DNA of 43,898 nt from the IMG/VR virus record IMGVR_UViG_3300031233_000001, one strand, 5' to 3'. The stretch is from a virus. Below the pieces are notes generated by a model. It ran no database searches. It was not told the DNA's origin and worked only from the letters and a program-made list of their open reading frames with translations. The first letter of the stretch is position 1. Every line of letters starts with the position of its first letter. Made by a program: the position numbers and the translations under genes. This document shows positions 1 through 43,898 of the stretch, piece after piece.

Positions 1-75
1 CCTATAAAGCCCTCTACTCCCTATTATACAATAAATAGAAACCCCCCTTTGTACTTATCTCTGAATTCTGTTTTG
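1..75. repeat. Terminal direct overlap, identical to 43824-43898; the contig closes on itself
   Basis: Bases 1-75 (cctataaagccc...ctgttttg) recur exactly at 43824-43898. Confidence 0.95.
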
Positions 76-127
76 GTAGACTCTCCGTGTAGAGTGTTTT
101 CTTGTCAGTTCGTCAGTATCGTCAGTA
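1..127 (+). repeat. Inverted repeat copy A, right part (continues from 43772-43823 across the junction; 179 bp in total)
   Basis: The reverse complement of 1-127 equals 28692-28818 base for base. Identity ends at 128 versus 28691. GC is about 38% over 1-100 by hand count. Confidence 0.95.
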
Positions 128-133: not shown

Positions 134-162
134 TTGACGGATTGAGTCGCCCTATGTAACTT
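134..162 (+). promoter_or_regulatory. Candidate sigma70-type promoter for the replication arm (TTGACG-N17-TAACTT)
   Basis: TTGACG at 134-139, a 17-nt spacer, TAACTT at 157-162, 31 nt upstream of the ATG at 193. Same pattern as the site at 28889-28917. Confidence 0.35.
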
Positions 163-192: not shown

Positions 193-534
193 ATGAAATA
201 TTCACCCTATGAGGCGCGCGAGTTGTTGCCCGCGATCCAAGCGGCGGAAGCGTTTGCCGCCAAGCATGGGACGACGTGCGTGCTGCCTGACGTACACGGA
301 TTTCCGGTGGTGGACCCTGCGGACCTGGACGCGCTGGAGTTGAGGCGCCCGGGCTGGATCGTCTCGCGGGAGGTGTACGCCGCTATCCATAAGGCGAAGG
401 TTCCGACCCAAACCCACGCCATTCGCCTGGGCAAGCAGTTGGCCAAGCGCTATCCGCACACGCGGATGTACGGACCACTGCGCGCCTACTGGATCATGCC
501 CGCAGGTGTAGAACCCGACTATCACACGGCGTAA
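193..534 (+). CDS. Hypothetical early protein (113 aa)
   Basis: First ORF of the + strand arm after the repeat. No recognisable motif. Confidence 0.6.
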   Translation: MKYSPYEARELLPAIQAAEAFAAKHGTTCVLPDVHGFPVVDPADLDALELRRPGWIVSREVYAAIHKAKVPTQTHAIRLGKQLAKRYPHTRMYGPLRAYWIMPAGVEPDYHTA

Positions 535-570
535 GCTGACCCTCCACACCACACTCACCTCGGGGCGCCC

Positions 571-3072
571 ATGCCTTCCATCCGCTTCACCCTCGTCACC
601 GCCGACAATTGCGCGATGACCAAGACGTTTAGCCAGGACGCCTTTGGCAACGTCACCAGCTCCGCCATCGCCCACATGACCGCAGGTAACGCTAAGGTCA
701 TCGAGATTGATGGCCCCGAACAGCTCGCCGCGTTCCTGCCGCTGCTCAAGCCCAACCAAGCCATCACCTGCGGCGTGCCGCAAGTGGGCGACACATTGCT
801 CACCACCCGGGCCGGCGCGGAATTCAACCCCACTGCGGTGGCGCGCACTAACGAGGCCTTCCGTTACCTGGATGCGCCGGCCCTGATGCCAATCGATATC
901 GACACGGCGACTGGCATGTACCGCAGCGTCGGCGAGGTGCTGGACGCTCTGGAGGCCGCCTCACCCTGGCTGCGCCACGTCTACCGTGTCGCGCGCCCGT
1001 CGTCTTCATCCTACGTCGCCGGACGCGGTTTGCGCGGCGTGCACGTCTACGTCCCGGTATCGCGCGGCACCGACATTCCTGAGCTGGGCAAGCGCCTGCA
1101 AATCGAACAATGGGCGACCGGACGCGGCTCGATTGTGATCAGCAAGTCGGGCGCGCTGCTGGTGCGCCAGCTGTCCGACGCGCTGGTCTATCAGCCATCA
1201 CGCCTGATGTTCGAGGCTGCGCCACAGCTGGAGGGCGACGTGCAGCGCGTTGTGCCGCCCGCCGAGTCGTGGCTCGAACGCGCCGCCGTGATGGGGCAAG
1301 GCCGCCCCGCCAAGTTCAAGACGGCCGAGGGTTGGCTAGACGCCCAGGAATTGCCGCCGCTACGCGACATCGAACGCCGCCGCTTCGAGGTCAACGTGCG
1401 CCAGGCCAAAGACCGCATGCGCGTCGAGGCCAAGCAGGTCGCCTTGAACTACCACAAGGCGAACGCTCTGGCCGCCGGATTGGACGATGGTGACCGTCGC
1501 GGGGCCCAGGCGCTACGTGCCCTAGGGGACAAGCGACTACCGCCGTCCTGGCCCCTGGCGTTGGCCGGTAGCCCCCTTCCGGTGCCGGCGGGGGCCATCA
1601 TTGGCAACCTGCCGACCTACCTGGGGCGGTTCTGCGCCGACCCGTTTGACGCATTGCGCCCGGACCTGACCGAAAGCCACAAGACCAAGGCCGAGATTGT
1701 CGCCATGCACGGCAAACCCGGCGTGTGGTCGCACAAGCTGCAAGAATTCTTTGAGTTCTCTATGGACGGCGAGCCCGAGCTGTCCACCCCGCTGGACATC
1801 GCCGCCGAGAACCTGTGCGGGGTAATCGAGGAATGGCCCGACAAGAAAGACAAGAAACGCAATAGCCTGTCTAACGTGATTTTCGCGGTAGGGCTACTGG
1901 CCAAACAGGCCGATATCCGCCTCACCTTCGATGTGTGCCTGGACGCCTTTTCGCGTGATGAGGTGCCATCGGATGGCGAATGGTTGCGCGCGGTGACCCG
2001 CCTGGGCTGCTCGTGCGTGTCCGCCGGCACGCTGCGCGAGGCGCTGGAGGAACTGGCACGCGCTAATCCAGTAGATCCGTGGAAAGACGCCGTGCTCAGC
2101 CTGCCGCTATGGGATGGCAAGCCGCGCGTCGATTCGCTGTTTGTCGACACCTTCGGCGCTGTGCCCTGCGAGGCGCAGTCCTACGCTGCGCGCGCGGTGC
2201 TCGCCGGCCTGGTGATGCGCCAACTACTGCCAGGCGCGCCCGCCCCCGTAGTCCCGGTGCTGATCGGCCCGCAAGGGCATGGCAAGGGCCTGTTTATCGC
2301 CGAGATGGCTAAAGCCATGGGCTTTCCGCCACCGACCGAGCTTGCCTTCACCGATGATCGGCGCATGTCCATGGCCGCCGCCCGCGCGCCGCTCGATGAG
2401 CTGTGCGAGATGGCCGGACTGGGCAAGCGTGATGCTGAGGACGTGAAGCGCTGGACGACCGACACCCAGGACGTCTATCGCCGGCCCTACGACAAGAAAG
2501 AGGAAACCCACCCGCGGCGCTTTGTGCTGATCGGCACAGCCAACAAGAATGAGCTGAACCGTGACGAGACCGGCAACCGTCGCTTTATGCCTGTACTGAC
2601 CCTGCAGTCGCCCTCGTCCGACTGGTCGGTCGAGGTGCCCCAGCTGTTCGCCGAGGCCAAAGCGAAATACTGCACCGACATGGCTAGTTATTTCCGGCTG
2701 ATTCGCGAAGCGGCTGAGGCGGTATTCGAGTACAACATGGACGCCATGAGCCGCGGCGAGGGTATGCCGGTGTCCGATCTGGACGACCTGCTGCCGCCTC
2801 ACCTGGAGCGCTTGATGTCCGATAAGCACCGCGTGCAGTCATCGGCCATCCGCGTAGCGCTGGACGTGCAAGCTACCGGGCGCAAGTTCTCCGCGCACGA
2901 GGTATCGCGCTGGCTCAAGGCGCGCGGTTGGACGGCCGGCGCCGACAGTCGTGGCATGCGCTACTACACTGCGCCGCAAACTTTCATTGATATGTGCGAA
3001 ACATTAGTGCAAACTGCGCCTAACCCTTTCGCCAACCACACCGCGGAGAATCTGCACCATGTCGCAGCCTAA
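571..3072 (+). CDS. Primase/helicase: VirE/D5-type P-loop NTPase with a possible N-terminal primase-polymerase domain
   Basis: 833 aa. Walker A GPQGHGKG, and VLIGTANK...DETGNRRFMPV typical of VirE/D5-like primase-helicases. The N-terminal IDIDT acidic motif as a primase domain is inference. Confidence 0.8.
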   Translation: MPSIRFTLVTADNCAMTKTFSQDAFGNVTSSAIAHMTAGNAKVIEIDGPEQLAAFLPLLKPNQAITCGVPQVGDTLLTTRAGAEFNPTAVARTNEAFRYLDAPALMPIDIDTATGMYRSVGEVLDALEAASPWLRHVYRVARPSSSSYVAGRGLRGVHVYVPVSRGTDIPELGKRLQIEQWATGRGSIVISKSGALLVRQLSDALVYQPSRLMFEAAPQLEGDVQRVVPPAESWLERAAVMGQGRPAKFKTAEGWLDAQELPPLRDIERRRFEVNVRQAKDRMRVEAKQVALNYHKANALAAGLDDGDRRGAQALRALGDKRLPPSWPLALAGSPLPVPAGAIIGNLPTYLGRFCADPFDALRPDLTESHKTKAEIVAMHGKPGVWSHKLQEFFEFSMDGEPELSTPLDIAAENLCGVIEEWPDKKDKKRNSLSNVIFAVGLLAKQADIRLTFDVCLDAFSRDEVPSDGEWLRAVTRLGCSCVSAGTLREALEELARANPVDPWKDAVLSLPLWDGKPRVDSLFVDTFGAVPCEAQSYAARAVLAGLVMRQLLPGAPAPVVPVLIGPQGHGKGLFIAEMAKAMGFPPPTELAFTDDRRMSMAAARAPLDELCEMAGLGKRDAEDVKRWTTDTQDVYRRPYDKKEETHPRRFVLIGTANKNELNRDETGNRRFMPVLTLQSPSSDWSVEVPQLFAEAKAKYCTDMASYFRLIREAAEAVFEYNMDAMSRGEGMPVSDLDDLLPPHLERLMSDKHRVQSSAIRVALDVQATGRKFSAHEVSRWLKARGWTAGADSRGMRYYTAPQTFIDMCETLVQTAPNPFANHTAENLHHVAA

Positions 3073-22223: not shown

Positions 22224-22266
22224 GGTAGCTAAGCGCGCACGCGTGCGCAATTAGTGAACGTGCGAG

Positions 22267-22312: not shown

Positions 22313-22340
22313 GCCTTTACCATCCACCATAGGGCTAGAC

Positions 22341-22613: not shown

Positions 22614-22618
22614 GCGAA

Positions 22619-24166: not shown

Positions 24167-25104
24167 TCGCGCTGGCGGTACGCGCCCGGGAAACCGGGCA
24201 CAGGCTCTAGTTTCTCGGGGTCAAACACCTTGCCGCTAGCCAGGTTGCGGCCAATCGCCGGAATCAACGTACGTGACCCGCAACGGCAACGTATAGCCTT
24301 TCCTGGCAGTACGTACCCAAAACCGTCGCCGAAATCAATTCCCACCTGAGTGTTGAAAATCCACTCCTCTCGGCTCGCGCGCACATGATTGACGCGAGGC
24401 TCCTTGCCGGCACTCGAATGCTTCCACACGGCCCACCACAGGCTTAATTCGCGTTGCCGCGCAGCGTTCATATCTGCGGTCAGCTTGTTCGACTGGTCGC
24501 GCGCAATCAGCGCCGCACGGTCGACGGTGATGCTGCCGCGCTTACGCAATGCGTCGGCCATGGTATGCAGGTCGCGGCCGGCTAGGAACGAACGGGTCAC
24601 GATGCCGTGCACGTCGGTGGCGAACTGCTGTGGGATGGACTTGATCAGCGACACATTCTCCGGCACGGCCACGTCCAGCACCGCGCGCTGCGCCGGAGTC
24701 CGTTGCATGTCTACCGTGAAGCCGGCGCGCCGCGCCTGGGCCTTCCACGCGTTCGCGTTGTCCCTGTAGCTCGCCCCAACCCAGCGCGTAGCCAGGCGCT
24801 TGGCGACGTCCTTGAAGTGACTCTCCCAATGTTTTTGCAGCCGGCCTAGCTCTGCGAGAAGGCGCTGTTGCGCAGTCTTCGGTGCGGCGTCCTGCGCTAG
24901 ATCGGGGATGCGCCCTGCGTCGGCATTGGCTTCCACAGCGGTCTGGTAACGATTGGAGATCCACCACAGGTAGCTCTTGACCATCGTGCGGGTTTCGCGC
25001 TCAAGCGCCGCCTTATAGGCCGCTTCCGTTCCGTGGTTGGGCAGGATCGGCGGGAGTTTCTTCTCTTTCTTGCCCGGCGCTTGCAGGTTCGTTGAGGTTG
25101 TCAT
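24163..25104 (-). CDS. Minor head morphogenesis protein (SPP1 gp7 / Mu F-like)
   Basis: ATG at 25104 with a GAGGG ribosome-binding site. C-terminal VNHVRASREEW...GKAIRCRCGS typical of this family. Overlaps the portal 3' end by 92 nt. Confidence 0.65.
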   Translation of the reverse strand: MTTSTNLQAPGKKEKKLPPILPNHGTEAAYKAALERETRTMVKSYLWWISNRYQTAVEANADAGRIPDLAQDAAPKTAQQRLLAELGRLQKHWESHFKDVAKRLATRWVGASYRDNANAWKAQARRAGFTVDMQRTPAQRAVLDVAVPENVSLIKSIPQQFATDVHGIVTRSFLAGRDLHTMADALRKRGSITVDRAALIARDQSNKLTADMNAARQRELSLWWAVWKHSSAGKEPRVNHVRASREEWIFNTQVGIDFGDGFGYVLPGKAIRCRCGSRTLIPAIGRNLASGKVFDPEKLEPVPGFPGAYRQRD

Positions 25105-26647
25105 TCGGGGCGCCCTCGTTGCCGATCTGTAGAATTTGCTGGGTGATGCCTGCGATGTCGTCGTCGGCCGGCTCGACGGCGTCGGTGCCGTCAAAGATAC
25201 CGGAATAGCCGCTAGACGGATCCGCCGCCAGGCGCTGCGCGACGTGCTGCGCATTGATCGCGCCCATGTCCACCCATTTCTGGTCGGCGTCGGCGTCCTT
25301 GTTGCGCTTGTCGGCCGCCTCCAGCGCGGTGAGTTCCTGCAGCGGCTCCCATTCCCATGTGATGCCATCGTCGATCGCACCGAACAGAGACAGCTGCACG
25401 ACTTTGAGCACGTTCTGCAGGAGCGGCGTCAGCGTGTTGCTCTGGTAGCCGCGCACGTAATCGTAGAACACCCGAATCTCGCCCTCGCTGGAGGCGTTCA
25501 GGCCAGTCGGCGTGAGGCCTAGCAGCTTGACCAGCGGGATATGCGACACGGCCGACATCTGCTCCTGACTCTGCGCCTGGAGCGCATCAAGCCCGGACAG
25601 CGGCGTATTGACCTGAAAGAACTCCTCGGTCGCCTTGTCCAGCAACATCAGATTGCGGTTGTCGCGGTACGCGTTGATCAGCATGGCGCGCTGCTGCAGC
25701 TCGACGTTCGCGCCCGGCTGCAAGGCCTGAGCCAGATCCATCGCCACGCCTGACACACTGAACTGCTTGACCGTGTCGCTGACCGACTGGCGCGTGCGCA
25801 GCCAGTTGTCGACGTAGGGAATGGCCAGCTGCGACATCGAGATGCCGCGGAATGAATACGTGGGTTTGAGCATGTCTGGCACGGGCCGCGACACGATCGT
25901 CTGCAGGCGCGTGGCGTGTACTTCGATACCGATCAGCCACCACGACGATGGCTTGTAGAAATCCGCCGCCGTGGGGTCGATCGAGTTGTAGAAGTTCGGC
26001 GTCACCCAGTAGGGCTCGACCACGCGCACGCCGATAAACGAGCCTTTGGGCACGCTGTACGGACGGAACACCAGCGGGGTATCCCGCGCGGTCTTGTCGT
26101 CCTTCATGCTGAAAAACATGTGCGCGCCACCGAAGGCCTGGTCGTGCACGACCGCCTGGCGCACGTGCGCACGCAGGTCGATGCGCTTGAGTTCTGCCTC
26201 GATGGCGGCCAGCGTCTCCGGCGAGGCGTCGCCCGCGGCCTTCACCTTGCCCCACATGCGCACCACCTCGTCGGCGAGCGTCTCGTGCATGGTGCGGTAC
26301 TCGGCCAGCTGGGCGAGCAGCGCCAGGGTCGGAAAGCCCGGAAAGCTGGTGGACTCCACGAAGGTCAGCGCATTGCTCGACTGGCCATTGAAGTCCAGCG
26401 CCATCTCGGCCGCCTTGCGCTCCGCCTGCCGGTACGCTTTCGGGTCCACCGTGTGCGCGGTCGCCGCGGCTATGGACGGGCTAGCCGATCCGCGCGGCGC
26501 ATTCTCCAGTGCGAGAGTGCCGACGGCGGGGCCAGTCAACGCCTTGTGAGCTGGATCGGCAGGCGCGCCAGGTTGTGCCGGCTTGGGTAGCGGAACCGGC
26601 ACGGTCGGGCGGCGGGGGGTTTGCTGTTTGTTCCGACGCTTGGTCAT
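25013..26647 (-). CDS. Portal protein (544 aa)
   Basis: ATGA-coupled to terL at 26647. Size and position are canonical. Confidence 0.8.
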   Translation of the reverse strand: MTKRRNKQQTPRRPTVPVPLPKPAQPGAPADPAHKALTGPAVGTLALENAPRGSASPSIAAATAHTVDPKAYRQAERKAAEMALDFNGQSSNALTFVESTSFPGFPTLALLAQLAEYRTMHETLADEVVRMWGKVKAAGDASPETLAAIEAELKRIDLRAHVRQAVVHDQAFGGAHMFFSMKDDKTARDTPLVFRPYSVPKGSFIGVRVVEPYWVTPNFYNSIDPTAADFYKPSSWWLIGIEVHATRLQTIVSRPVPDMLKPTYSFRGISMSQLAIPYVDNWLRTRQSVSDTVKQFSVSGVAMDLAQALQPGANVELQQRAMLINAYRDNRNLMLLDKATEEFFQVNTPLSGLDALQAQSQEQMSAVSHIPLVKLLGLTPTGLNASSEGEIRVFYDYVRGYQSNTLTPLLQNVLKVVQLSLFGAIDDGITWEWEPLQELTALEAADKRNKDADADQKWVDMGAINAQHVAQRLAADPSSGYSGIFDGTDAVEPADDDIAGITQQILQIGNEGAPNDNLNEPASAGQEREETPADPAQPRNGSGL

Positions 26648-28158
26648 TGGGTTGCCATCCGTAATACGTCCGCTGTGATAAGTGAGGCGATCGGCGACCG
26701 CAAGCATAGTTGATGTAATGCGATAGTCATCATGTCCACCATATCGTCGTTGGCCACGTCGGGGAAGCTGGTGATCTCGGCCACAACCGGCACGATGCCG
26801 GGATTCTCGTCAGGATGGGGGAGCATGACGCACTTATTTTGCCAGACCCAGCTTACCGCATGGGCACGCGCTTCTTTCGAGCCCATCGGCGGCACGCCGA
26901 CGAGACCGGTAATGTGTTTTTTTAACATGTCGATCAAGGCGCTGCCGTTGGCTGCGTCCTCGATGTAGATGCGCGCTACCCGTGGGTGCTTCTTCTTGAG
27001 ATCGACGATAGCCGATGCTGTGGCCATAAACGCGAGTTTCTCACGCCGCCAGTCCAGCAACCACACTCGATCGTCGCTTGTCTTGCCCCATACGCCGACG
27101 CCGACATAATCGCTCGCGTCGCCATCCTTGAAGGTAGCATCAACCGAAATTATGCACTGAACGAGGTTCGCCGGTAGCTCAGCGCGTCGGTAATATTGAA
27201 CATGATCGCGTTTGAAGATCGCTCCGTATTCTGCGAGCGGGGTTTGCTGAAAAAGAGATGCCCACCACATCTCGGACATGTGGGCTTTCATCTCGCGCAG
27301 CTTGGCCTCGCTGTGCAATTCAGGAACGAGCGCGCCTTCCGGCAGCTCTGGGTCGTAGCCAATCTCGCTGGGTAGGTTGAGCGCCGGGAACGACAGCCGC
27401 CGAAAGCGCGGATCACCTTCCATTTTACGCCGCACGCGCGCTAACAGATCGTTGGCTGACCAGGGTGTGCCAATGATGACGGTTCCCGATCGCTGTTGCA
27501 GGCGGGTAATGAGTACGGACTCGTACCATGCCTCTAGCCCGTCCTGCACGACGGTCGATAGCGCCTGCTGAGCGTTGGATGTGGCGTCGTCCACAATGGC
27601 GATGTCAAGCGAGAAACCCGTGAGGCCGCCGCCCACGCCCACGCCGCGCAAGCCACCGCCTTGCGGCACATCGAAGCCGTCGGACGTGCGCGTACCCTTA
27701 AAACCGATGAGCGCGGTGTGCGGGAAGATGGCCCGGTAGATGGGCTCGTCCATGATGCCCGCTGCGTCGCGCGTGTTGCGTCGCGCCAAACTGAGTGCAT
27801 AGGACGCGCAAGCGATACGCACGGCAGGCAACTCGCCAGTCAGCCGGCCGAACAAATAGGGCGGCAGGCAGCGTGCGATAAGCGAACTCTTACCGTGCTG
27901 GGGGCCTGCCGTGAGCATCAGGACCGGGCGCTTGCCGGCCAGCACGTCTTCCACGAAGACGTCAATTTCCCGGCACACCCGTGCCGAGAAGGCCGAGTGC
28001 CGGAAGCGCGGCCGGTGTACGGCAGACACGAACGCGGCGTAATTGGTTCGCGCCGCCTCGATCAAGAACTGAATGGGGTCCACGGCTTGCAGACTGCCAC
28101 CGCCAGGGCTCGCGGCCACGTTGGGCGGGTGGGTAACGGCTAGGCACGCGCCGGTCAC
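26644..28158 (-). CDS. terL: Terminase large subunit
   Basis: Walker A-like TAGPQHGKSS, Walker B-like LDIAIVDDAT, nuclease-domain ISVDATFKDGDASDY. GTGA-coupled to terS. Confidence 0.85.
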   Translation of the reverse strand: MTGACLAVTHPPNVAASPGGGSLQAVDPIQFLIEAARTNYAAFVSAVHRPRFRHSAFSARVCREIDVFVEDVLAGKRPVLMLTAGPQHGKSSLIARCLPPYLFGRLTGELPAVRIACASYALSLARRNTRDAAGIMDEPIYRAIFPHTALIGFKGTRTSDGFDVPQGGGLRGVGVGGGLTGFSLDIAIVDDATSNAQQALSTVVQDGLEAWYESVLITRLQQRSGTVIIGTPWSANDLLARVRRKMEGDPRFRRLSFPALNLPSEIGYDPELPEGALVPELHSEAKLREMKAHMSEMWWASLFQQTPLAEYGAIFKRDHVQYYRRAELPANLVQCIISVDATFKDGDASDYVGVGVWGKTSDDRVWLLDWRREKLAFMATASAIVDLKKKHPRVARIYIEDAANGSALIDMLKKHITGLVGVPPMGSKEARAHAVSWVWQNKCVMLPHPDENPGIVPVVAEITSFPDVANDDMVDMMTIALHQLCLRSPIASLITADVLRMATQ

Positions 28159-28631
28159 TGGCGGGCATCCAGAAGGCCGGCGGCAGCTAGCTCCTTGAGC
28201 TGCTCCACGTACGTCTCGCGCTGCTGGTCGGAGATGGACTCGGCGAAGGGCGCCGCGTTGGTGATTTCGAGAATGGCCTTATCGAAGCCCAGCAGCTTGA
28301 CCAGCATGGCGAACGATTTGTCCTTGCTGCGCAGCTTCGGGACGATCTGGCCCTGCTTTACATCCCAACCCTCAATCAGCCGGCCGAATTGCACGGACTT
28401 CATCCGGGCCATGTCGAACACGAACTGTTCCACTGCGCCCAGACCGCCGCAGGTAGCGCAGGTCATCTCGGTGCGCATCTCCGCATCGCCCAGTACGCCT
28501 ACCCCGTCGCAGCTGCCGCACGTGATGGCCTTCACCTGCAACAAGTCGGCGAGGTTGATATTGATCAGCCCGACCAGATCGGCCACAAGGGACGCTTTGA
28601 CGGGCTGCAGGTCGAAGGCGGTAGCAGTCAT
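28155..28631 (-). CDS. terS: Probable terminase small subunit with an inserted CxxCxGxG zinc finger
   Basis: First gene of the head arm, immediately upstream of terL. C-terminal KSFAMLVKLLGFDKA resembles small-terminase C-termini. CGSCDGVG...CATCGGLG. Confidence 0.55.
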   Translation of the reverse strand: MTATAFDLQPVKASLVADLVGLININLADLLQVKAITCGSCDGVGVLGDAEMRTEMTCATCGGLGAVEQFVFDMARMKSVQFGRLIEGWDVKQGQIVPKLRSKDKSFAMLVKLLGFDKAILEITNAAPFAESISDQQRETYVEQLKELAAAGLLDARQ

Positions 28632-28691: not shown

Positions 28692-28870
28692 TACTGACGA
28701 TACTGACGAACTGACAAGAAAACACTCTACACGGAGAGTCTACCAAAACAGAATTCAGAGATAAGTACAAAGGGGGGTTTCTATTTATTGTATAATAGGG
28801 AGTAGAGGGCTTTATAGGAAACTGACAAGAATCTCGTCAGTCCTCAGTATTCACTGTCGTGAGGCTGACG
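28692..28870 (-). repeat. Inverted repeat copy B (179 bp, exact reverse complement of 43772-43823 joined to 1-127)
   Basis: Base-by-base comparison gives 179/179 identical. Flanking bases differ on both sides. Confidence 0.95.
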
Positions 28871-28888
28871 CGCGGAAATTTCGAATAA

Positions 28889-28917
28889 TGGACGTTAGCC
28901 CGGAAATGCGCTAAGTT
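28889..28917 (+). promoter_or_regulatory. Candidate promoter for the recombination/lysis arm (TGGACG-N17-TAAGTT)
   Basis: Same architecture as 134-162. It is followed by the leader TCCACCACAAAGGCCGCACC and the ATG at 28950. Confidence 0.35.
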
Positions 28918-28949
28918 CGCGCCCACATATCCACCACAAAGGCCGCACC

Positions 28950-30164
28950 ATGAGCGAAACACAAGAACTTCATAGCAAACTGTCAATGTCCGCCCGGTCG
29001 CGCTGGTCCAAATGCGCGGTCTCAGTCCCGTGGAGCGAGAATTTGCCCAACGAGTCAGGTCCGGCTGCCGAGGAGGGGACCATCGCCCACAAGGTGGCGG
29101 AGTTCTACGTGCGCCAGCGGTTCGGGCTGGAAGGTGCGAAACCCGGCATCCCGCCCGAGTACCAGCCGCCCGCCGGTCTGGACCTGAAAGGCCAGACGGT
29201 CAACGCTTGGAACGCCAAAATGCGCCTGCACGGGCAGGACTACGCGGCGTTCATTGCTACGCTAGTGGGCAATTTCCCCGATGTCTCGGTCGTGCTGGAG
29301 AAACGCGTGGCCGTGGATGGCATCACACCGCCGCTGTTCGGCACGGCCGATTGCCTGCTGTGGTTCCCGGGCATTCGGCGACTGGCCGGCGTGGATTACA
29401 AATACGGCTTTGGCGAGGTGGACGTGGGCACAGTCGACGCCCCCAACGCGCAAGTGGCCGCCTACGCGGTCGCCGCTGCCGAGACGTTCAAGCTCGCGCC
29501 CTTGACGGTCGGGCTGGCCATCTACCAGCCGCGGCGGATCCACGGCGAGCCCGGGCAGGTGTTGTTGTTGCCCGAGACGTGGCTGGCGTCCGAGCGTGCC
29601 AAGCTACTGGCCGAGGCCCGCCAGGTTGAAGCGGCGTTCGCGGGCCTACTCACGACGCCCGTACCGGGCAGCCATTGCCGCTATTGCCCGGTGGCCAAGA
29701 ATGCCCGCTGCCCGGCAGTCAGCACCGCCGGCAAGGTAGCGCTCCAGGCGCACACCCAGGCGGCGCTGGTGCACGACATGACCGATGCGGAGATACTCGC
29801 GCTGTGGTCGGTCAAGTCGGCGTTCAAGCATTTTTGGGAGGACATCGAGGAGCGCATCGACGAGATGGCCGACAAGGGCGCCGCTGGCCTGGTGGTGAAG
29901 GTGGCCACCGGTCGTAAGATGTGGGCCGATCCCGACGCAGCCGTGTTTACCTTGCTAGCACTTAACCGCCTGGACTTGCTGGCCCCTGCAGCCATCGGCG
30001 AGGCACTGGCGGCTATTCCGGCTGAGATGCAGGTCACGCTGATCAAGCGCGCCGCAGGGGCCCGCGCCATCCTGACCACTGAGGCGGCCGACCCGCTGAC
30101 CGTCGCTGCAACGTTCGACAAATATGCACACAGGACACTTGACAAGCCCGAAAAGAACGCATAA
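28950..30164 (+). CDS. PD-(D/E)XK exonuclease, Cas4/RecB-like (DUF2800-like)
   Basis: EEGTIAHKVAE, FGTADCLLW, VDYKYG (D...D-x-K) and a C-terminal Cys cluster CRYCPVAKNARC. Confidence 0.75.
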   Translation: MSETQELHSKLSMSARSRWSKCAVSVPWSENLPNESGPAAEEGTIAHKVAEFYVRQRFGLEGAKPGIPPEYQPPAGLDLKGQTVNAWNAKMRLHGQDYAAFIATLVGNFPDVSVVLEKRVAVDGITPPLFGTADCLLWFPGIRRLAGVDYKYGFGEVDVGTVDAPNAQVAAYAVAAAETFKLAPLTVGLAIYQPRRIHGEPGQVLLLPETWLASERAKLLAEARQVEAAFAGLLTTPVPGSHCRYCPVAKNARCPAVSTAGKVALQAHTQAALVHDMTDAEILALWSVKSAFKHFWEDIEERIDEMADKGAAGLVVKVATGRKMWADPDAAVFTLLALNRLDLLAPAAIGEALAAIPAEMQVTLIKRAAGARAILTTEAADPLTVAATFDKYAHRTLDKPEKNA

Positions 30165-30167
30165 TGT
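30139..30167 (+). promoter_or_regulatory. Candidate sigma70 promoter (TTGACA-N17-TAATGT)
   Basis: Perfect -35 at 30139-30144, a 17-nt spacer, TAATGT at 30162-30167 overlapping the exonuclease stop codon. Upstream of the SSB-like gene. Confidence 0.4.
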
Positions 30168-30282
30168 TTCACCGTGGCGGCGTCGGCGGCTGGCCTTGTG
30201 ACCTACCTGCAACCCCTGGCAGCAAAGTCACCCCAGCGCGGCCACACTTAATCCGTAATTCTCATACTTCGGAGTTTACTAA

Positions 30283-30921
30283 ATGGCTATCTCTGATCAC
30301 GTTGCAATTCTGACTCACCACGCTCTGGCCGCCGCCCAGCCCAACCGCAAGAAAGCCGGCAACCCGCTGCAGTTCTACGCCCTGCTGGCCTTCGCGCCGG
30401 ACGCGGCAAACGACCTGCAGGCGATCGCCAAGCAGGTCGCCCCGGGCGGTTCGCTCAATGGCCTGAAAGTCGGCGTGCGCCGTAACTCGCAGCTCGACAA
30501 GCCCGTCCCGGGCGTGCCGGCTGACTGGTTCATCATCCGCGCGGCGACGCAGTTCCCGCCGTATCTGGCCGATGAAGGCGGCAACCAGCTGGACCAGGCC
30601 ACGCATACGGCTGACATCCGTGTGAAGTTCTATGCGGGCAAGAAAGTGCGTGCGGCTCTCTCGGCCTACTACTGGCCCAACGAAGGCGGCGGCATCTCGT
30701 TCAATCTCGACGGCGTGATGGCTGTGAGCGATGGCGAGCGCCTCAACATCGGCAACACGGCAGCTAATGCGTTTGCGGGCTACGCTGACATGAACGTCGT
30801 CAAGCAGGAGCCCGCTGCTAGCCCGTCCGGGAGCGCCGCCACGGGCGCGTCGTCGGGCTCTACTGCCGCTGACCCGTTCCAGCAGTCGACCAAGCCCGCA
30901 ACGGCGAACCCGTTTGCGTAA
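30283..30921 (+). CDS. Putative ssDNA-binding protein (DUF2815-like)
   Basis: Follows the DUF2800-like exonuclease, as in other PolA phage replication modules. Ser/Ala-rich tail ending in DPF/NPF, like SSB C-terminal tips. Inference. Confidence 0.5.
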   Translation: MAISDHVAILTHHALAAAQPNRKKAGNPLQFYALLAFAPDAANDLQAIAKQVAPGGSLNGLKVGVRRNSQLDKPVPGVPADWFIIRAATQFPPYLADEGGNQLDQATHTADIRVKFYAGKKVRAALSAYYWPNEGGGISFNLDGVMAVSDGERLNIGNTAANAFAGYADMNVVKQEPAASPSGSAATGASSGSTAADPFQQSTKPATANPFA

Positions 30922-30940
30922 GCCTGTTCCACGTGAAACA

Positions 30941-30964
30941 CAGGGCGCCTCTGGGCGCCCTGTT
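30941..30964 (+). terminator. Hairpin (attenuating terminator) after the SSB-like gene
   Basis: 10-bp stem acagggcgcc/ggcgccctgt with loop tctg, followed by tccgttt. Confidence 0.45.
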
Positions 30965-30979
30965 CCGTTTGAGGGCCGC

Positions 30980-31363
30980 ATGGTACTGCTGACCCTCCCC
31001 TGGCCGCCGTCACTCAACCGGCTGTATCGCGCGGTCGGCGGCCGCATTCTGCTGTCAGCCGCGGCGCGCAAGTACAAAAAACAGCTGGCCAGTGCGTTGC
31101 CAAGTGGGCTGGTGTCGCCGCTGACTGGCCGCCTGGCCGTGCAGATGGTGCTACACGCGCCAGCGGCGCTGGGCCCTTTATTCGATGTCGCGAACCGGGA
31201 AAAGTTGTGTTTCGACACCCTCACGGAGCAACGCGTGTGGCTGGACGACTCACAAATCGACTGGCTGCTAATCGAGCGCGGCGCGCCGTCCGGTAAAGGC
31301 CATGTGACGCTGACCATTCGCGAGGTGGACGCGAGCCCGTCTAACGGTATACTTGCGACATGA
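30980..31363 (+). CDS. rusA: RusA-family Holliday junction resolvase
   Basis: LPWPPSLNRLYR...DVANREKLCFDTL...WLDDSQI. ATG at 30980 with a GAGGG ribosome-binding site. Confidence 0.8.
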   Translation: MVLLTLPWPPSLNRLYRAVGGRILLSAAARKYKKQLASALPSGLVSPLTGRLAVQMVLHAPAALGPLFDVANREKLCFDTLTEQRVWLDDSQIDWLLIERGAPSGKGHVTLTIREVDASPSNGILAT

Positions 31364-31382
31364 TGACCGACACGGGTTCCTG

Positions 31383-31853
31383 ATGCCGCGCATATCAGCC
31401 AGCGAAGCGGGCGGCCAAAACGTCTGCGCCTTCCTCGACATGCTCGCCGTGTCGGAAATTGGCGCGGCGCTGCTGGCCAAAAGCGACGATGGTTACAACG
31501 TGCTGGTAGGCGGGCAGCTCTTTGTGAGCTACGCCGATCATCCGAATATCTACAACCAGCGGTTCAACTCGACGGCGGCCGGCCGCTACCAGCTGCTGCA
31601 CCGCTGGTGGCCCGCTTACCGATCGCTGCTGCAGCTACCCGACTTCAGCCCATTGAGCCAGGACAAGGTAGCGCTCCAGCAGATCCACGAGCAGGGCGCG
31701 ATTCCCGACATTCAGGCCGGGCGCTTCGACCAGGCCGTGATGAAGGTCGCAAACATATGGGCATCTTTGCCTGGCAACTCGTACCAACAACATCAAAACG
31801 CGCCGAGCGACCTGCGCGCCGCCTACCTTGCCGCCGGAGGCACACTCGCATGA
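31383..31853 (+). CDS. Endolysin, lambda R-like lytic transglycosylase
   Basis: Colinear by eye with lambda R: FLDMLAVSE, AAGRYQLLHRWWPAY, DFSPLSQDKVALQQI, NIWASLPG. Confidence 0.85.
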   Translation: MPRISASEAGGQNVCAFLDMLAVSEIGAALLAKSDDGYNVLVGGQLFVSYADHPNIYNQRFNSTAAGRYQLLHRWWPAYRSLLQLPDFSPLSQDKVALQQIHEQGAIPDIQAGRFDQAVMKVANIWASLPGNSYQQHQNAPSDLRAAYLAAGGTLA

Positions 31854-32065
31854 TGCCAAACGATCCCATCATGGTCTGGGCGACCGGCGCCGTCGCCGCT
31901 GCGGGCGGCTGGTTCATCCGCCGCCTCGACCAGCGCGTCAGCAAGCTGGAATCGGACATGGCCGAGCACACTGCCAACAAGGAAATGCTCGATCGCATGT
32001 ACACCGAGCTGCAGGAACTGACCAAACTTACCAGCCGCATCGCCGGCCATCTCAACATCAGCTAA
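31850..32065 (+). CDS. Small membrane protein with N-terminal TM and a coiled coil (71 aa); lysis-associated
   Basis: ATGA overlap with the endolysin stop. TM segment IMVWATGAVAAAGGWFI. Confidence 0.5.
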   Translation: MMPNDPIMVWATGAVAAAGGWFIRRLDQRVSKLESDMAEHTANKEMLDRMYTELQELTKLTSRIAGHLNIS

Positions 32066-32076
32066 TAGGGATTCAC

Positions 32077-32412
32077 ATGGAACTGGACCCCGGGCTTATG
32101 CGCGAATGGATCGAAGCGGCGCGGGCGTTGCAAAACACGATGGAGCGCTTTCCACAGCGACACGCGACGGATGGCCAGCCCAGCGCCACCATGCACACCG
32201 GCAACGTATCGGTTCGAGTAGATGACGGCAAGACGCATCGTCTGATGCTGCTTTCCGTGTTCTCCGCCATCTTTTGCGCCGTGCTGTCACTGATCACGAT
32301 ACTAGCCGTCCTGGGCGGCGGTATGCTTTACTTGAACATGAAAGACCACTTGGACGCCATTTACATGATGGCCCCGCAGCTCAACCAACCCACTGGAGCT
32401 AAACGCCCATGA
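32077..32412 (+). CDS. Membrane protein (111 aa); holin/antiholin candidate
   Basis: ATG at 32077. Hydrophobic stretch LMLLSVFSAIFCAVLSLITILAVLGGGMLYL. Confidence 0.5.
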   Translation: MELDPGLMREWIEAARALQNTMERFPQRHATDGQPSATMHTGNVSVRVDDGKTHRLMLLSVFSAIFCAVLSLITILAVLGGGMLYLNMKDHLDAIYMMAPQLNQPTGAKRP

Positions 32413-32702
32413 GCATCATCGTCCTGACCCCCAAGCCGCCGCAGGCGCAGACCGCTGCCGCCAACACGTCCACCATCGCCCTGACCGAGACCAGCCTGGT
32501 CGCGCGTATCGGTGACGACTTCCTGCACCTGATGGGCCACGAAGGCTATCGTTTCGACACGTTCGAGCAGCTGCGCGACTACGCCCAGGCCCAGATCGAC
32601 GCCGCCGCGACGCTGGCCACGCTAGCGGCTAAGACCGACGCACCGGCAGCTGCCCCCGAAGTGGCGCTCGCGCCCGCAGCCGATAGCGAGCCCGCGGCTT
32701 AA
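32409..32702 (+). CDS. Hypothetical Ala-rich protein (97 aa)
   Basis: ATGA-coupled to the upstream gene. No TM segment. Confidence 0.5.
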   Translation: MSIIVLTPKPPQAQTAAANTSTIALTETSLVARIGDDFLHLMGHEGYRFDTFEQLRDYAQAQIDAAATLATLAAKTDAPAAAPEVALAPAADSEPAA

Positions 32703-32966: not shown

Positions 32967-33024
32967 AGGCCAATTTGCTGACCTGGTGCATCTGGCTCGT
33001 GCTGTACCCACCTGGAGCCCGCCC

Positions 33025-33555: not shown

Positions 33556-33561
33556 TGCCGG
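33544..33561. terminator. Short hairpin between the convergent lysis and tail arms
   Basis: 7-bp stem ccggcac/gtgccgg with loop agta. Weak T-tracts. Confidence 0.3.
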
Positions 33562-33573
33562 CACCATCGATCT

Positions 33574-34920: not shown

Positions 34921-34929
34921 GGCGTGGCC

Positions 34930-43019: not shown

Positions 43020-43343
43020 TTATGGATAGGTCACGCCGCCATTGTCGTCAGGGTCGCCGTAGAGCAGCAGATACTGCGTGCCAAACCCGGTGTAGACCGG
43101 ATCCGACGTGCCTAGCAGGTCGACCCAGAAAAGCCCGTGCGGCAGACCGGTGTAGGGCGACGAGTTGAGATTCGTACGGTCCAGGCAGATGCGGCCCGCG
43201 GCGATGCTCACGCCGTTGTACACGATGTCAGCGAACAGGCCGCCATCGGTGGATGTCAAAGTGAACTGCGCGGTTTGGTTATCCAGCACGCAGGAAAACG
43301 TCTGGATGGCCAGGGGCAGCACGGGGATGACTTGATAGCTCAC
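43020..43343 (-). CDS. Virion/baseplate-associated hypothetical protein (107 aa)
   Basis: The GTG at 43343 forms a GTGA overlap with the upstream stop. The Arg-rich N-terminal extension in the track ORF is unlikely to be real. Confidence 0.5.
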   Translation of the reverse strand: MSYQVIPVLPLAIQTFSCVLDNQTAQFTLTSTDGGLFADIVYNGVSIAAGRICLDRTNLNSSPYTGLPHGLFWVDLLGTSDPVYTGFGTQYLLLYGDPDDNGGVTYP

Positions 43344-43726
43344 AAGGCCACCTGGCCGCCGTTGCCGGCGATGTCGGACACGTTGAGTACGCCGCCGATG
43401 ACGCGCTTGGATCCGGCCGTGAAGGTGAACTGCGCCAGCGCGGTAGCGCATAGAGGTACCTTGAGCGCCTCCGTGTTGAAGACCGACTGCAGCAGCGACA
43501 GGTTGGGCGGTCCGCCGAAGTACGCAGGGTAATTAATGCCCTGCGTAGTGTCGAAATACACCTCGCCTTGCCAGGCCTGTACGCGGGTAGCTACGTCCTG
43601 GGCAAGCCGCATGCCTGGGCTGGTCTGGTCGCTCTGCGGCGTAGCGTCGCCGACCGTGCGCAGGTTCCCGCGCGAATCCGTGTCCAGATCCCAAAGTGTG
43701 ATATCGAGGGCCAGCGTGTCGGTCAT
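43340..43726 (-). CDS. Baseplate wedge-like protein (gpW/gp25/XkdS-like), 128 aa
   Basis: LALDITLWDLDTDSRGNL...LAQDVATRVQAWQGEVYFDTTQGINY fits the gpW/gp25 pattern. Start ATG at 43726, with an alternative at 43762. The track GTG at 43783 lies inside the repeat. Confidence 0.45.
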   Translation of the reverse strand: MTDTLALDITLWDLDTDSRGNLRTVGDATPQSDQTSPGMRLAQDVATRVQAWQGEVYFDTTQGINYPAYFGGPPNLSLLQSVFNTEALKVPLCATALAQFTFTAGSKRVIGGVLNVSDIAGNGGQVAL

Positions 43727-43771
43727 GGCCGCATGGTAGCGCGCCTCTGGGTTTAATTCCATTTCTCGAAT

Positions 43772-43898
43772 CGTCAGCCTCACGACAGTGAATACTGAGG
43801 ACTGACGAGATTCTTGTCAGTTTCCTATAAAGCCCTCTACTCCCTATTATACAATAAATAGAAACCCCCCTTTGTACTTATCTCTGAATTCTGTTTTG
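43772..43898 (+). repeat. Inverted repeat copy A, left part (43772-43823) plus the redundant terminal 75 nt
   Basis: The reverse complement of 43772-43823 equals 28819-28870 exactly. Identity ends at 43771 versus 28871. Confidence 0.95.
43824..43898. repeat. Terminal direct overlap, identical to 1-75
   Basis: Exact 75-nt identity with the window start. Confidence 0.95.

What the first reader, a model, noticed from the sequence alone, without database searches (positions are those of the whole stretch)
28692..28870. Perfect 179-bp inverted repeat pair splits the circular genome into 28.6-kb and 14.9-kb arcs, each copy at a divergent operon junction
Seen directly: 28692-28870 is the exact reverse complement of 43772-43823 joined to 1-127 across the circular junction (179/179). 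Identity stops abruptly on both sides. The copies cut the circle into arcs of 28,564 bp (128-28691) and 14,901 bp (28871-43771). Copy A lies between the baseplate unit (-, start 43726/43762) and the replication arm (+, 193). Copy B lies between the terS/head arm (-, 28631) and the exonuclease/lysis arm (+, 28950). Perfect identity of about 38% GC non-coding DNA in a 60-70% GC genome implies ongoing homogenisation or strong constraint. Inference: as in the yeast 2-micron plasmid, herpesvirus and plastid genomes, such repeats permit flip-flop inversion and two genome isomers. No serine or tyrosine recombinase is encoded. Inversion would therefore rely on homologous recombination, and the phage's Cas4-like exonuclease, SSB-like protein and RusA sit right next to copy B. 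In the flipped isomer both early arms would diverge from one copy and both morphogenesis arms from the other, which is a more canonical layout. The orientation shown may be one of two coexisting forms, or it may be unresolved by the assembler.
Basis: partly seen in the sequence, partly recalled or inferred. Interest (0 to 1): 0.85.

Follow-up and report, generated by a model that had tools for sequence, protein, structure and literature searches.

The report
Paired junction repeat in four-arm phage
The perfect 179-bp inverted repeat is real, and it is this phage's version of a paired control cassette that all 17 examined genomes of its phage family (window included) carry at the two points where their gene blocks diverge; the copies are kept alike by gene conversion and have flipped genome halves in the family's past, but nothing shows two coexisting genome forms in this phage.

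Summary
Observation confirmed. 28692-28870 is the exact reverse complement of 43772-43823 plus 1-127 (179/179). GC is 41.9%, not 38%, against 62.5% for the genome.

Caveat: the 75-nt terminal overlap lies inside the repeat, so this contig never crossed copy A. Independent contigs do show copy A intact.

The phage belongs to the Bcep781/OP2/Bakoly four-arm myophages. All 17 genomes where both junctions could be read (window included) carry a 110-513 bp repeat pair at the same two divergent junctions. Eight pairs are inverted and nine are direct.

Copies are mostly 93-100% alike within a genome (range 77-100%). They are 78% alike or less, or unalignable, between genera. OP2 against XPP1 gives 10 genome-specific sites and 0 copy-specific sites, which indicates gene conversion.

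Relatives with exactly the flipped layout exist (PQ43W, IMG/VR L029). The junction repeats have therefore mediated arc inversion during evolution.

All four same-species assemblies that cross the repeat, the window clade and 13 OP2-like isolates show only the window's layout. A 50:50 flip-flop is therefore unsupported, and a minority isomer is untested.

Most likely function: an orientation-independent late promoter/operator cassette, possibly also an origin, with 8-nt motif clusters at both ends.

Interest is moderate.

The parts
28692..28870 (.). Repeat copy B (179 bp), between the terS/head arm (-) and the exonuclease/lysis arm (+)
   Evidence: The identical sequence is crossed in the independent JGI contig L052.
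43772..43823 (.). Repeat copy A, first 52 nt (reverse complement of 28819-28870). It continues at 1-127 across the circular join.
   Evidence: Intact copy A with both flanks is seen in the independent contigs L057/L072 and L076.
1..127 (.). Repeat copy A, last 127 nt (reverse complement of 28692-28818)
43824..43898 (.). Terminal duplication of 1-75. It lies wholly inside the repeat and is an assembly overlap (127+127-179), not a separate feature.
   Evidence: inference from the contig end positions
28692..28720 (+). X-end motif cluster: three direct copies of ACTGACRA (TACTGACGA, TACTGACGA, ACTGACAAGAA)
   Evidence: In one search there are 11 matches in the window against 1.8 expected, and 10 of them lie in the two repeat copies.
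28820..28870 (.). Y-end motif cluster: ACTGACAAGAA (direct), TCTCGTCAGT and CCTCAGTA (inverted), then GCTGACG. It forms an imperfect terminal inverted repeat of about 19 nt with the X end.
   Evidence: One search gives z = 3.6. The same layout is seen in relatives.
28789..28822 (+). AT-rich core blocks: TGTATAAT (28789-28796) and TATAGGAAAC (28813-28822). The second block is conserved in the window clade.
   Evidence: The consensus sigma-70 scan found nothing here, so any promoter role is inferred.
28889..28917 (+). Sigma-70-like promoter candidate for the exonuclease arm, just outside the repeat (TGGACG-17 nt-TAAGTT)
   Evidence: The block TTGACGTT...GCGCTAACGT is conserved in 6 relatives. 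The phiXaf18 record annotates a promoter at the equivalent place.
134..162 (+). Sigma-70-like promoter candidate for the replication arm, just outside the repeat (TTGACG-17 nt-TAACTT)
   Evidence: read directly from the sequence
28155..28631 (-). First gene of the head arm (small-terminase position, 158 aa). It starts 60 nt from copy B.
   Evidence: It is homologous to Bcep1 gp20 and lies upstream of terL.
28950..30164 (+). PD-(D/E)XK exonuclease (DUF2800), first gene of the exonuclease/lysis arm
30283..31363 (+). Enc34-type ssDNA-binding-like protein (30283-30921) and RusA resolvase (ORF 30914-31363)
43340..43762 (-). First gene of the tail arm (baseplate wedge homologue, 140 aa). Its start is only 9 nt from copy A.
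193..3072 (+). Start of the replication arm: a 113-aa protein (193-534) and a VapE-like primase-helicase (571-3072)

Best explanation
The repeat is this phage's pair of a junction cassette. All 17 examined genomes of the Bcep781/OP2/Bakoly four-arm myophage lineage (window included) carry it twice, once in each of the two intergenic regions from which the four gene arms (head, exonuclease/lysis, tail, replication) diverge.

Shown:
- The cassette is AT-rich.
- In this clade it is bounded by mutually inverted clusters of an 8-nt motif (ACTGACRA here).
- It is essentially the only non-coding DNA upstream of the tail operon (9 nt remain outside it). It is also most of the DNA upstream of the head operon.
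- The two early arms have their own sigma-70-like promoter candidates just outside it.
- The cassette occurs in either orientation and next to any combination of arms in relatives.
- The copies evolve in concert.
- Relatives show the exactly flipped arrangement.

Inferred:
- It is an orientation-independent cis-element. Most likely it carries outward-facing late promoter/operator sites for a phage DNA-binding protein. It possibly also has origin function.
- The copies are kept identical by gene conversion through homologous recombination, using the phage exonuclease, ssDNA-binding-like protein and RusA and/or host RecA.
- Because the copies are inverted here, a crossover between them would flip the 14.9-kb arc without breaking any operon.
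- In this phage one layout predominates. Flip-flop, if present, is a minority event and not a 50:50 equilibrium.
For: Family trait: 17 of 17 genomes with both junctions readable have a repeat pair at the same two junctions.
- Layout T1 (terS|exo and baseplate|primase) with inverted repeats: window 179 bp/100%; L017 110 bp/85%; IMGVR_3300027857_000028 202 bp/94%; sample 3300044719 171 bp/99.4%; sample 3300044981 210 bp/92.9%; KPhi1 197 bp/99.5%; OP2 326 bp/99.4%; XPP1 324 bp/95.7%.
- T1 with direct repeats: Bcep1 370 bp/93.5%; PhiXhv-28 195 bp/99.5%; L034 257 bp/96%.
- T2 (terS|baseplate and exo|primase) with inverted repeats: L029 170 bp/98.2%.
- T2 with direct repeats: PQ43W 513 bp/98.8%; L039/L063 263 bp/95.4%; L044/L064 404 bp/87.6%; Bakoly and Adzire 196 bp/77%.

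Concerted evolution: elements of different genera are 78% alike or less, or unalignable. OP2 against XPP1 gives 10 genome-specific sites and 0 copy-specific sites.

Motif clusters: ACTGACRA has 11 matches against 1.8 expected, and 10 of them are in the repeat copies. Genome-specific motifs sit at the element ends in relatives. End-to-end inverted similarity has z = 3.6-20.8 in the window clade, L029 and L034, and 3.1 in KPhi1.

Geometry and promoters.

Recombination genes present and no invertase found.

Single layout in all crossings: window, L052, L057 and L076. It also holds for window-clade contigs L006, L007, L009-L011, L014-L017, L022 and L023, and for 13 OP2-like isolates.

The NJ tree shows that layout is largely clade-specific.
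Against: - No experiment or transcript data bear on function.
- The simple sigma-70 scan finds no promoter inside the repeat.
- Inverted end clusters are not significant in OP2, PhiXhv-28, PQ43W, L039 or Adzire, so the 'symmetrical ends' model may hold for only part of the family.
- In T2 genomes one copy lies between two early arms, where a late promoter is not needed. A second role or pure conversion-driven persistence is therefore required.
- Most same-species assemblies break at the repeat (more than 40 samples). A mixed isomer population would also produce this. MEGAHIT, which ignores read pairs, must break there anyway.
- Only four crossings exist for this species.
- The tree is a single-protein NJ tree without support values.
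- In two cases the two junctions came from different contigs of one sample and are assumed to belong to one genome.
Confidence: 0.62

Rival explanations
1. Active flip-flop. Homologous recombination between the two 179-bp copies continually inverts one arc. Every population would then hold both genome isomers at appreciable frequency, as in plastids, herpes simplex virus and the Anabaena cyanophages A-1(L)/N1/Elbi.
For: - Perfect inverted repeats and phage recombination genes are present.
- Either isomer keeps all operons and their upstream DNA intact (sequence logic).
- The flipped layout is viable in nature (PQ43W and L029).
- Gene conversion shows that the copies do interact.
- Most assemblies fail to resolve the repeat.
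- There is a direct precedent in tailed phages. IR-flanked segments of about 30 kb coexist as two isomers, with no recombinase yet identified (bioRxiv 10.64898/2026.02.14.705889).
Against: - All 4 same-species crossings, all window-clade contigs and 13 OP2-like isolates show one layout.
- Layout follows phylogeny rather than being mosaic among close relatives. This is unlike the cyanophage case.
- No isomer-2 junction was seen in any contig read.
- The pattern scan for it cannot be counted, because the positive control also failed.
Confidence: 0.2
2. The cassette is primarily a replication origin present in two copies, or a bipartite origin like P4 ori/crr or SPP1 oriL/oriR. Iteron clusters bound by the adjacent primase-helicase or another initiator would flank an AT-rich unwinding core. 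This is not exclusive of a promoter/operator role.
For: - Clusters of 8-nt motifs flank an AT-rich core. The two copies are the lowest-GC spots of the genome.
- Copy A lies next to the VapE-like primase-helicase arm.
- Orientation independence and retention between two early arms in T2 genomes fit an origin better than a late promoter.
- The resemblance to P4, SPP1 and HSV oriS is from memory and was not tested.
Against: - GC skew simply follows transcription direction and gives no origin signal.
- Nothing links the motif to any protein.
- The tail operon still needs a promoter, and the cassette is the only DNA available.
Confidence: 0.2
3. A MITE-like mobile element that inserted twice into AT-rich intergenic DNA.
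For: - It is AT-rich, has abrupt boundaries and has imperfect terminal inverted repeats.
- The L029 element has 33-nt perfect terminal inverted repeats.
Against: - There is no target-site duplication. The flanks are GGTAG|...|CGCGG at copy B and CCGAA|...|ATTCG at copy A.
- There is no third copy in the genome.
- There is no match in 50,697 phage records or IMG/VR.
- The pair sits at the same two junctions in all 17 genomes and diverges together with them.
Confidence: 0.03
4. Assembly artefact: a chimeric or wrongly duplicated sequence.
For: The contig ends lie inside the repeat, and the 75-nt overlap is generated by it.
Against: - Independent JGI and ENA assemblies from dozens of samples reproduce both arcs ending in the repeat.
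- Several of them cross it.
- Sequenced isolates of relatives have the same feature.
Confidence: 0.01

Closest known systems
IR-flanked genome isomerism in Anabaena cyanophages (A-1(L), N1, Elbi, A-Lf14 and others; bioRxiv 10.64898/2026.02.14.705889)
   Same: - Tailed phages with circularly permuted genomes.
- A pair of inverted repeats of a few hundred bp bounds a large segment.
- Opposite orientations are found among relatives.
- No dedicated recombinase has been identified; that paper leaves both a site-specific recombinase and general recombination open.
   Different: - In the cyanophages both isomers were shown to coexist in every culture, and orientation is mosaic among close relatives.
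- Here orientation is clade-consistent and only one layout is seen in all crossings.
- Here the repeat sits exactly at the two divergent operon junctions, is shorter (179 bp), and is direct in nine of the 17 genomes.
Plastid inverted repeat, herpes simplex virus inverted repeats (with oriS between divergent immediate-early genes) and yeast 2-micron FRT repeats (from general knowledge)
   Same: - Two inverted copies split the genome into two unique arcs.
- The copies are homogenised.
- Inversion leaves genes intact.
- HSV oriS also has binding sites flanking an AT-rich centre between divergent promoters.
   Different: - Those repeats are kilobases long and carry genes. The 2-micron plasmid uses the FLP site-specific recombinase.
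- Equimolar isomers are documented there and not here.
- Here the repeat is a 179-bp non-coding cassette.
Junction repeats of sequenced relatives (Bcep1/Bcep781 group, OP2 and XPP phages, KPhi1, PhiXhv, PQ43W, Bakolyvirus)
   Same: They have the same four-arm architecture, the same two positions, similar size, GC and motif-cluster layout, and the same within-genome homogenisation.
   Different: - The sequence is not alignable across genera, and the motif differs (GTGACAGAT in Bcep1, ACGGTAGAG in OP2).
- Orientation is direct in Bcep1, PhiXhv-28, PQ43W and Bakoly.
- I found no mention of these repeats in the papers held. The primary Bcep781 paper (two look-ups) was not available, and the OP2 paper was not looked up.
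Site-specific invertible segments of phages (Mu G/Gin, P1 C/Cin)
   Same: A DNA segment bounded by inverted repeats in a phage genome.
   Different: Those use a serine invertase gene next to short crossover sites and switch tail-fibre genes. No such recombinase was found here, and the segment is a third of the genome.
Duplicated or bipartite phage origins (P4 ori/crr, SPP1 oriL/oriR; from memory)
   Same: Two separated clusters of the same short motif, each with AT-rich DNA, and one of them next to the initiator/primase-helicase gene.
   Different: No evidence here for initiator binding or for replication initiation at the cassette.

Membership tests
Recombination-driven genome isomerism via large inverted repeats (plastid IR, HSV, Anabaena cyanophages) | Two inverted copies divide a circular or permuted genome into two unique arcs | tested here: met
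   179/179 inverted pair; arcs of 28,564 and 14,901 bp
Recombination-driven genome isomerism via large inverted repeats (plastid IR, HSV, Anabaena cyanophages) | Both arc orientations coexist in one population (all four junction combinations present) | tested here: inconclusive
   No reads were available. Four same-species assemblies that cross a copy all give the window's layout (window, L052, L057, L076). More than 40 assemblies break at the repeat. The pattern scans of the JGI collection failed their positive control.
Recombination-driven genome isomerism via large inverted repeats (plastid IR, HSV, Anabaena cyanophages) | Arc orientation differs among relatives, with breakpoints at the repeats | tested here: met
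   The flipped layout occurs in L029 (inverted repeat), PQ43W, L039/L063 and L044/L064. It is not seen among close relatives: the window clade and 13 OP2-like isolates are uniform.
Repeats under concerted evolution (gene conversion) | Copies within a genome are more alike than orthologous copies between genomes, and shared substitutions are genome-specific rather than copy-specific | tested here: met
   Within-genome identity is 93-100% in most genomes, against 78% or less, or unalignable, between genera. OP2 against XPP1 gives 10 genome-specific and 0 copy-specific sites. This was not testable within the window's own species, where strains are 99.9-100% identical.
Site-specific inversion systems (Gin/Hin/Cin, FLP/FRT) | A serine or tyrosine recombinase is encoded by the element or genome | tested here: not met
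   Pfam scans of 30 non-structural proteins gave no resolvase, integrase or recombinase hits. Structural proteins were not scanned, but they are homologous to annotated virion proteins.
Iteron-type replication origin | Clusters of short repeated motifs flank an AT-rich region | tested here: met
   ACTGACRA clusters at both ends; 41.9% GC against 62.5% for the genome
Iteron-type replication origin | Initiator binding and initiation of replication at the site | not testable with these tools
   GC skew is uninformative
MITE or other small mobile element | Target-site duplication and dispersed copies at unrelated loci | tested here: not met
   No direct duplication of the flanks. Only two copies exist, at the same conserved positions in all relatives. 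No hits in the phage database or IMG/VR.
Bcep781-like four-arm myophages (Naesvirus, Kantovirinae, Bakolyvirus; proposed Anamaviridae) | Four gene clusters on alternating strands, with homologous head, tail, exonuclease/lysis and replication genes | tested here: met
   Synteny and 46-70% amino-acid identity to Bcep1. The architecture is described in PMC2771037.

The most novel reading that the evidence does not exclude
The paired junction cassette is a built-in hinge of a whole family of virulent phages. It would be an orientation-free switch and/or origin element that is continually homogenised. Recombination over the whole repeat, or only over its short inverted end clusters, would then repeatedly re-wire which gene arms are neighbours. 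That would generate all four observed states: two layouts, each with direct or inverted repeats. Members with inverted repeats, such as this phage, would exist as mixed populations with a measurable minority of the flipped isomer.
Probability: 0.2. Interest if true: 0.75.

Novelty: new variant of a known kind. Interest (0 to 1): 0.55.

Why it matters
- It turns a single-genome oddity into a family-wide rule. All 17 examined genomes of this group of plant- and soil-pathogen phages keep two homogenised copies of one cassette at their two divergent junctions. The group includes biocontrol candidates against Xanthomonas, Ralstonia and Burkholderia.
- This points to a shared control or origin element for all four transcription units. 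Such an element is worth mapping if these phages are to be engineered.
- It gives a clean natural example of concerted evolution and repeat-mediated arm rearrangement in virulent phages.
- It carries a practical warning. These genomes assemble as a dumbbell graph, so 'circular' contigs, terminal repeats and arc orientation in metagenomic catalogues can be artefacts of the repeat.
- If a minority flipped isomer is found, the family would be a second, independent case of recombinase-free genome isomerism in tailed phages.

Tried and rejected
- Rfam and tRNA scans of the window found nothing.
- The consensus promoter/terminator scan of both junctions found no sigma-70 site inside the repeat.
- RNA folding gave z = -0.33 on the plus strand and -2.17 on the minus strand. 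The latter is due only to pairing of the inverted end clusters, so there is no sign of a structured RNA.
- blastn of the 179 bp against 50,697 phage records gave no match. An exact 21-mer in IMG/VR gave no match.
- A pattern scan of JGI metagenome contigs for the isomer-2 junction (terS flank, 170-190 nt, baseplate flank) found nothing. The control pattern for the intact repeat also found nothing, although a JGI contig with the intact repeat exists (L052). That collection evidently lacks this phage, so both nulls are uninformative.
- The look-up of encoding contigs with the exonuclease collapsed all places into one, so it could not show which gene lies across the junction.
- Strain-level co-conversion could not be tested, because all same-species contigs are 99.9-100% identical.
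- GC skew only tracks transcription direction.
- Aligning the arm-proximal leaders of L029 to the window to place the inversion breakpoints to the base was inconclusive, because the sequences are too diverged.
- Literature: the papers held on these phages do not mention the repeats. The Bcep781 paper was not held and the OP2 genome paper was not looked up, so prior description cannot be excluded.
- The MITE and assembly-artefact readings were rejected, as set out under the rival explanations.
Full report
**1. The observation**

Reading the sequence and an exact comparison confirm the repeat.
- 28692-28870 is the perfect reverse complement of 43772-43823 joined to 1-127 (179/179).
- The window carries a 75-nt terminal duplication (1-75 = 43824-43898), so the circle is 43,823 bp.
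- The arcs are 28,564 and 14,901 bp.
- Beyond both ends only about a third of the next 14 bases match.
- The repeat finder finds no other repeat of comparable length.
The two copies are the lowest-GC spots in the genome.

One caveat matters.
- The contig starts with the last 127 nt of the reverse-complemented repeat and ends with its first 127 nt, and 127+127-179 = 75.
- The apparent circular overlap is therefore what a path arc1-repeat-arc2 through a k=127 graph with a collapsed repeat would give. This contig never crossed copy A. This is an inference from the numbers.
- Independent assemblies settle the matter. Looking up the exact flanking proteins in public assemblies shows this phage in about 30 or more collection blocks.
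- MEGAHIT k141 contigs of 28,846 bp (28,564 + 2x141) and 15,182/15,183 bp (about 14,901 + 2x141) end in 141 nt of the repeat.
- JGI contigs cross exo|repeat|terS (L052), and baseplate|repeat|rep113 (L057/L072, L076), with 100% identical repeats.
- The repeat, its perfect identity and copy A are therefore real.

**2. What the genome is**

megablast and tblastn place the window among the Bcep781-like small myophages. These are Naesvirus, Kantovirinae (OP2, KPhi1) and Bakolyvirus, grouped as the proposed 'Anamaviridae' (PMC13168109).
- The literature describes them as four gene clusters on alternating strands with highly permuted genomes (PMC2771037).
- The window has the same four arms: replication (+, 193-10691), head (-, 10919-28631), exonuclease/lysis (+, 28950-33555) and tail (-, 33574-43762).
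- Pfam confirms a VapE-like primase-helicase, a DEAD helicase, Pol A, a PD-(D/E)XK exonuclease (DUF2800), an Enc34-type SSB-like protein and RusA.
- Pfam finds no serine or tyrosine recombinase among 30 non-structural proteins.

**3. The repeat is a family trait**

I compared both divergent junctions in every relative for which both were available. These were eight isolate genomes (Bcep1, Bakoly, Adzire, PhiXhv-28, KPhi1, PQ43W, OP2, XPP1) and eight IMG/VR genomes. The IMG/VR loci were fetched with the exonuclease, primase, terL and a 422-aa baseplate protein that lies mid-arc, so that one 21-kb locus spans both junctions.

All 17 genomes, window included, carry a repeat pair of 110-513 bp at exactly these two junctions.

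I write T1 for the window's layout (terS|exo and baseplate|primase). I write T2 for the layout with terS|baseplate and exo|primase.

| Layout, repeat orientation | Genome | Repeat length / identity |
|---|---|---|
| T1, inverted | window | 179 bp / 100% |
| T1, inverted | L017 | 110 bp / 85% |
| T1, inverted | IMGVR_3300027857_000028 | 202 bp / 94% |
| T1, inverted | sample 3300044719 | 171 bp / 99.4% |
| T1, inverted | sample 3300044981 | 210 bp / 92.9% |
| T1, inverted | KPhi1 | 197 bp / 99.5% |
| T1, inverted | OP2 | 326 bp / 99.4% |
| T1, inverted | XPP1 | 324 bp / 95.7% |
| T1, direct | Bcep1 | 370 bp / 93.5% |
| T1, direct | PhiXhv-28 | 195 bp / 99.5% |
| T1, direct | L034 | 257 bp / 96% |
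| T2, inverted | L029 | 170 bp / 98.2% |
| T2, direct | PQ43W | 513 bp / 98.8% |
| T2, direct | L039/L063 | 263 bp / 95.4% |
| T2, direct | L044/L064 | 404 bp / 87.6% |
| T2 variant, direct | Bakoly, Adzire | 196 bp / 77% |

In Bakoly and Adzire the distal arm adjacencies are also changed. For samples 3300044719 and 3300044981 the two junctions lie on different contigs, and I assume they belong to one genome.

**4. Concerted evolution**
- Between genera the elements are at most 78% alike over parts, or cannot be aligned at all. The 179 bp has no blastn match in 50,697 phage records.
- Within a genome the copies are usually 93-100% identical.
- Between the close pair OP2 and XPP1, 10 sites in the 326-bp repeat are genome-specific, meaning both copies of one genome differ from both copies of the other. 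No site is copy-specific.
- That is the signature of gene conversion after the two phages diverged.
It could not be tested inside the window's own species, because all strains are 99.9-100% identical.

**5. Anatomy and likely function**

Anatomy:
- The element begins with three direct copies of ACTGACRA.
- It has an AT-rich core with TGTATAAT (28789-28796) and a clade-conserved TATAGGAAAC (28813-28822).
- It ends with one direct and two inverted motif copies plus GCTGACG.
- The motif is strongly confined to the element: 11 matches against 1.8 expected, and 10 of them lie in the two copies.
- The ends form an imperfect inverted repeat of about 19 nt.
- Relatives have the same plan with their own motifs (ACAGACGA, GTGACAGAT, ACGGTAGAG, GTACGGA).
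- The L029 element has 33-nt perfect terminal inverted repeats.
- The end symmetry is not significant in OP2, PhiXhv-28, PQ43W, L039 and Adzire.

Geometry:
- The tail operon's start codon is 9 nt from copy A, and terS is 60 nt from copy B. Promoters for the two morphogenesis operons must therefore lie in or very near the cassette.
- Each early arm has a sigma-70-like site just outside it. These are TTGACG-17-TAACTT at 134-162 and TGGACG-17-TAAGTT at 28889-28917. The latter block is conserved in six relatives and is annotated as a promoter in phiXaf18.
- The simple sigma-70 scan finds nothing inside the element. There is no Rfam hit and no convincing RNA structure.

Inference:
- The cassette occurs in both orientations and next to every combination of arms in viable phages. 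Whatever it does must therefore be orientation-independent.
- My best reading is outward-facing late promoter/operator modules at its ends, recognised by a phage DNA-binding protein.
- An origin function (iterons plus an AT-rich core, next to the primase-helicase arm) is a serious and non-exclusive alternative. One reason is that in T2 genomes one copy sits between two early arms and is still maintained.

**6. Does it flip?**

Evidence that flipping has happened in the lineage:
- A crossover between inverted copies would invert one arc and keep every operon attached to its own upstream DNA.
- Exactly that product exists. L029 (inverted repeats) and PQ43W, L039 and L044 (direct repeats) have tail and exo arms in the same internal order as the window, but terS now faces the baseplate gene and the exonuclease faces the primase.
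- The junction cassettes have therefore been inversion breakpoints in the lineage.

A single model can connect all four observed states (inference only):
- Whole-repeat recombination links T1-inverted and T2-inverted.
- Recombination between the short inverted end clusters of different copies links T1-direct and T2-direct.
- Recombination between the two ends of one copy flips its core, switching direct and inverted.

Evidence against a standing 50:50 mixture in this phage:
- All four same-species assemblies that cross a copy show T1 (window, L052, L057, L076).
- All window-clade IMG/VR contigs that cross a junction show T1.
- All 13 OP2-like isolates with a 326-bp inverted repeat have terS|repeat|exo in one piece, as do KPhi1 and MYK3.
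- On a single-protein NJ tree the layout is largely clade-specific.
- This differs from the Anabaena cyanophages. There both isomers coexist in every culture and orientation is mosaic among close relatives (bioRxiv 10.64898/2026.02.14.705889).

What remains open:
- Most assemblies of this phage break at the repeat. MEGAHIT must break there in any case, so this says little.
- My direct scan for the isomer-2 junction in JGI contigs found nothing, but its positive control also failed, so it does not count.
- A minority isomer is therefore neither shown nor excluded.

**7. Comparison and verdict**
- The element works like the inverted repeats of plastids, HSV or the Anabaena cyanophages. It offers homology for inversion and is homogenised.
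- The defining feature of that group, coexisting isomers, is untested here, and the indirect evidence leans against equimolarity.
- It is not a site-specific inversion system, because no recombinase is present.
- It is not a MITE, because it has no target duplication and no dispersed copies.
- It is not an artefact.
- It resembles iteron origins in anatomy only.
- I found no description of these paired junction repeats in the papers I could read. The original Bcep781 paper was not available and I did not look up the OP2 genome paper, so novelty at the family level is probable but unproven.
- I rate it a new variant of a known kind, of moderate interest. The family-wide paired cassette with concerted evolution and all four topological states is the notable part, more than the flip-flop idea itself.

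Noticed in passing
window 1-75 and 43824-43898: The 75-nt 'direct terminal repeat', which would flag this contig as circular or complete, lies wholly inside the inverted repeat. It equals 127+127-179, so it is a by-product of a collapsed repeat in a k=127 graph. Catalogues that call completeness from such overlaps would be misled about how the circle was closed.
   Followed up: yes
window 134-162 and 28889-28917: Sigma-70-like promoter candidates (TTGACG-17-TAACTT and TGGACG-17-TAAGTT) lie just outside each repeat copy on the early-arm side. The exo-side block is conserved in six relatives and is annotated as a promoter in phiXaf18.
   Followed up: partly
window 4453-4569: Imperfect tandem array of 9/12-nt units (GCC/GCCTAC) inside ORF 3998-4666. 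It encodes a low-complexity Ala/Tyr-rich stretch in a replication-arm protein of unknown function.
   Followed up: no
window 16452-19277 and 22254-23996: Two plus-strand gene islands are embedded in the minus-strand head arm. One holds a 505-aa protein with a weak REase_MTES_1575 hit. The other holds an RNA ligase (PF09414) and a Dam methyltransferase (PF05869). They look like inserted accessory modules.
   Followed up: partly
window ~6626-6800 and ~22250-22750: Further low-GC spots (45-47% GC in 150-nt windows) besides the two repeat copies. The second coincides with the start of the RNA ligase/Dam island.
   Followed up: no
L029 1029-1198 and 20206-20375: The junction element of this relative, which has the flipped layout, carries 33-nt perfect terminal inverted repeats (CTTAATAAGGGCCGGAACAGACGACACAGACGA). 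The two copies therefore align both directly (76%) and inverted (98%).
   Followed up: partly
L003 (PhiXhv-28) 29260-29626 versus 46130-46369: The baseplate|primase junction holds the element partly duplicated in tandem. Two adjacent segments each match overlapping parts of the single copy at the other junction.
   Followed up: no
L002/L004 (Bakoly, Adzire): Bakolyvirus genomes differ from the window by more than a simple flip. The distal arm adjacencies are also exchanged (exo arm end meets sheath; tail fibre end meets replication arm end). This is equivalent to a flip plus inversion of the whole early module. Their repeat copies are only 77% alike.
   Followed up: partly
L004 (Adzire) 1-224 and 44499-44732: The record ends carry arrays of 15-nt-period tandem repeats, unrelated to the junction element.
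   Followed up: no
L059 (ENA ERZ27248934 k141_789316) 1-100: One sample has a single-base variant inside the repeat copy next to the replication arm. It is the only within-species repeat polymorphism seen. It could serve as a marker for conversion or flipping in read data.
   Followed up: no
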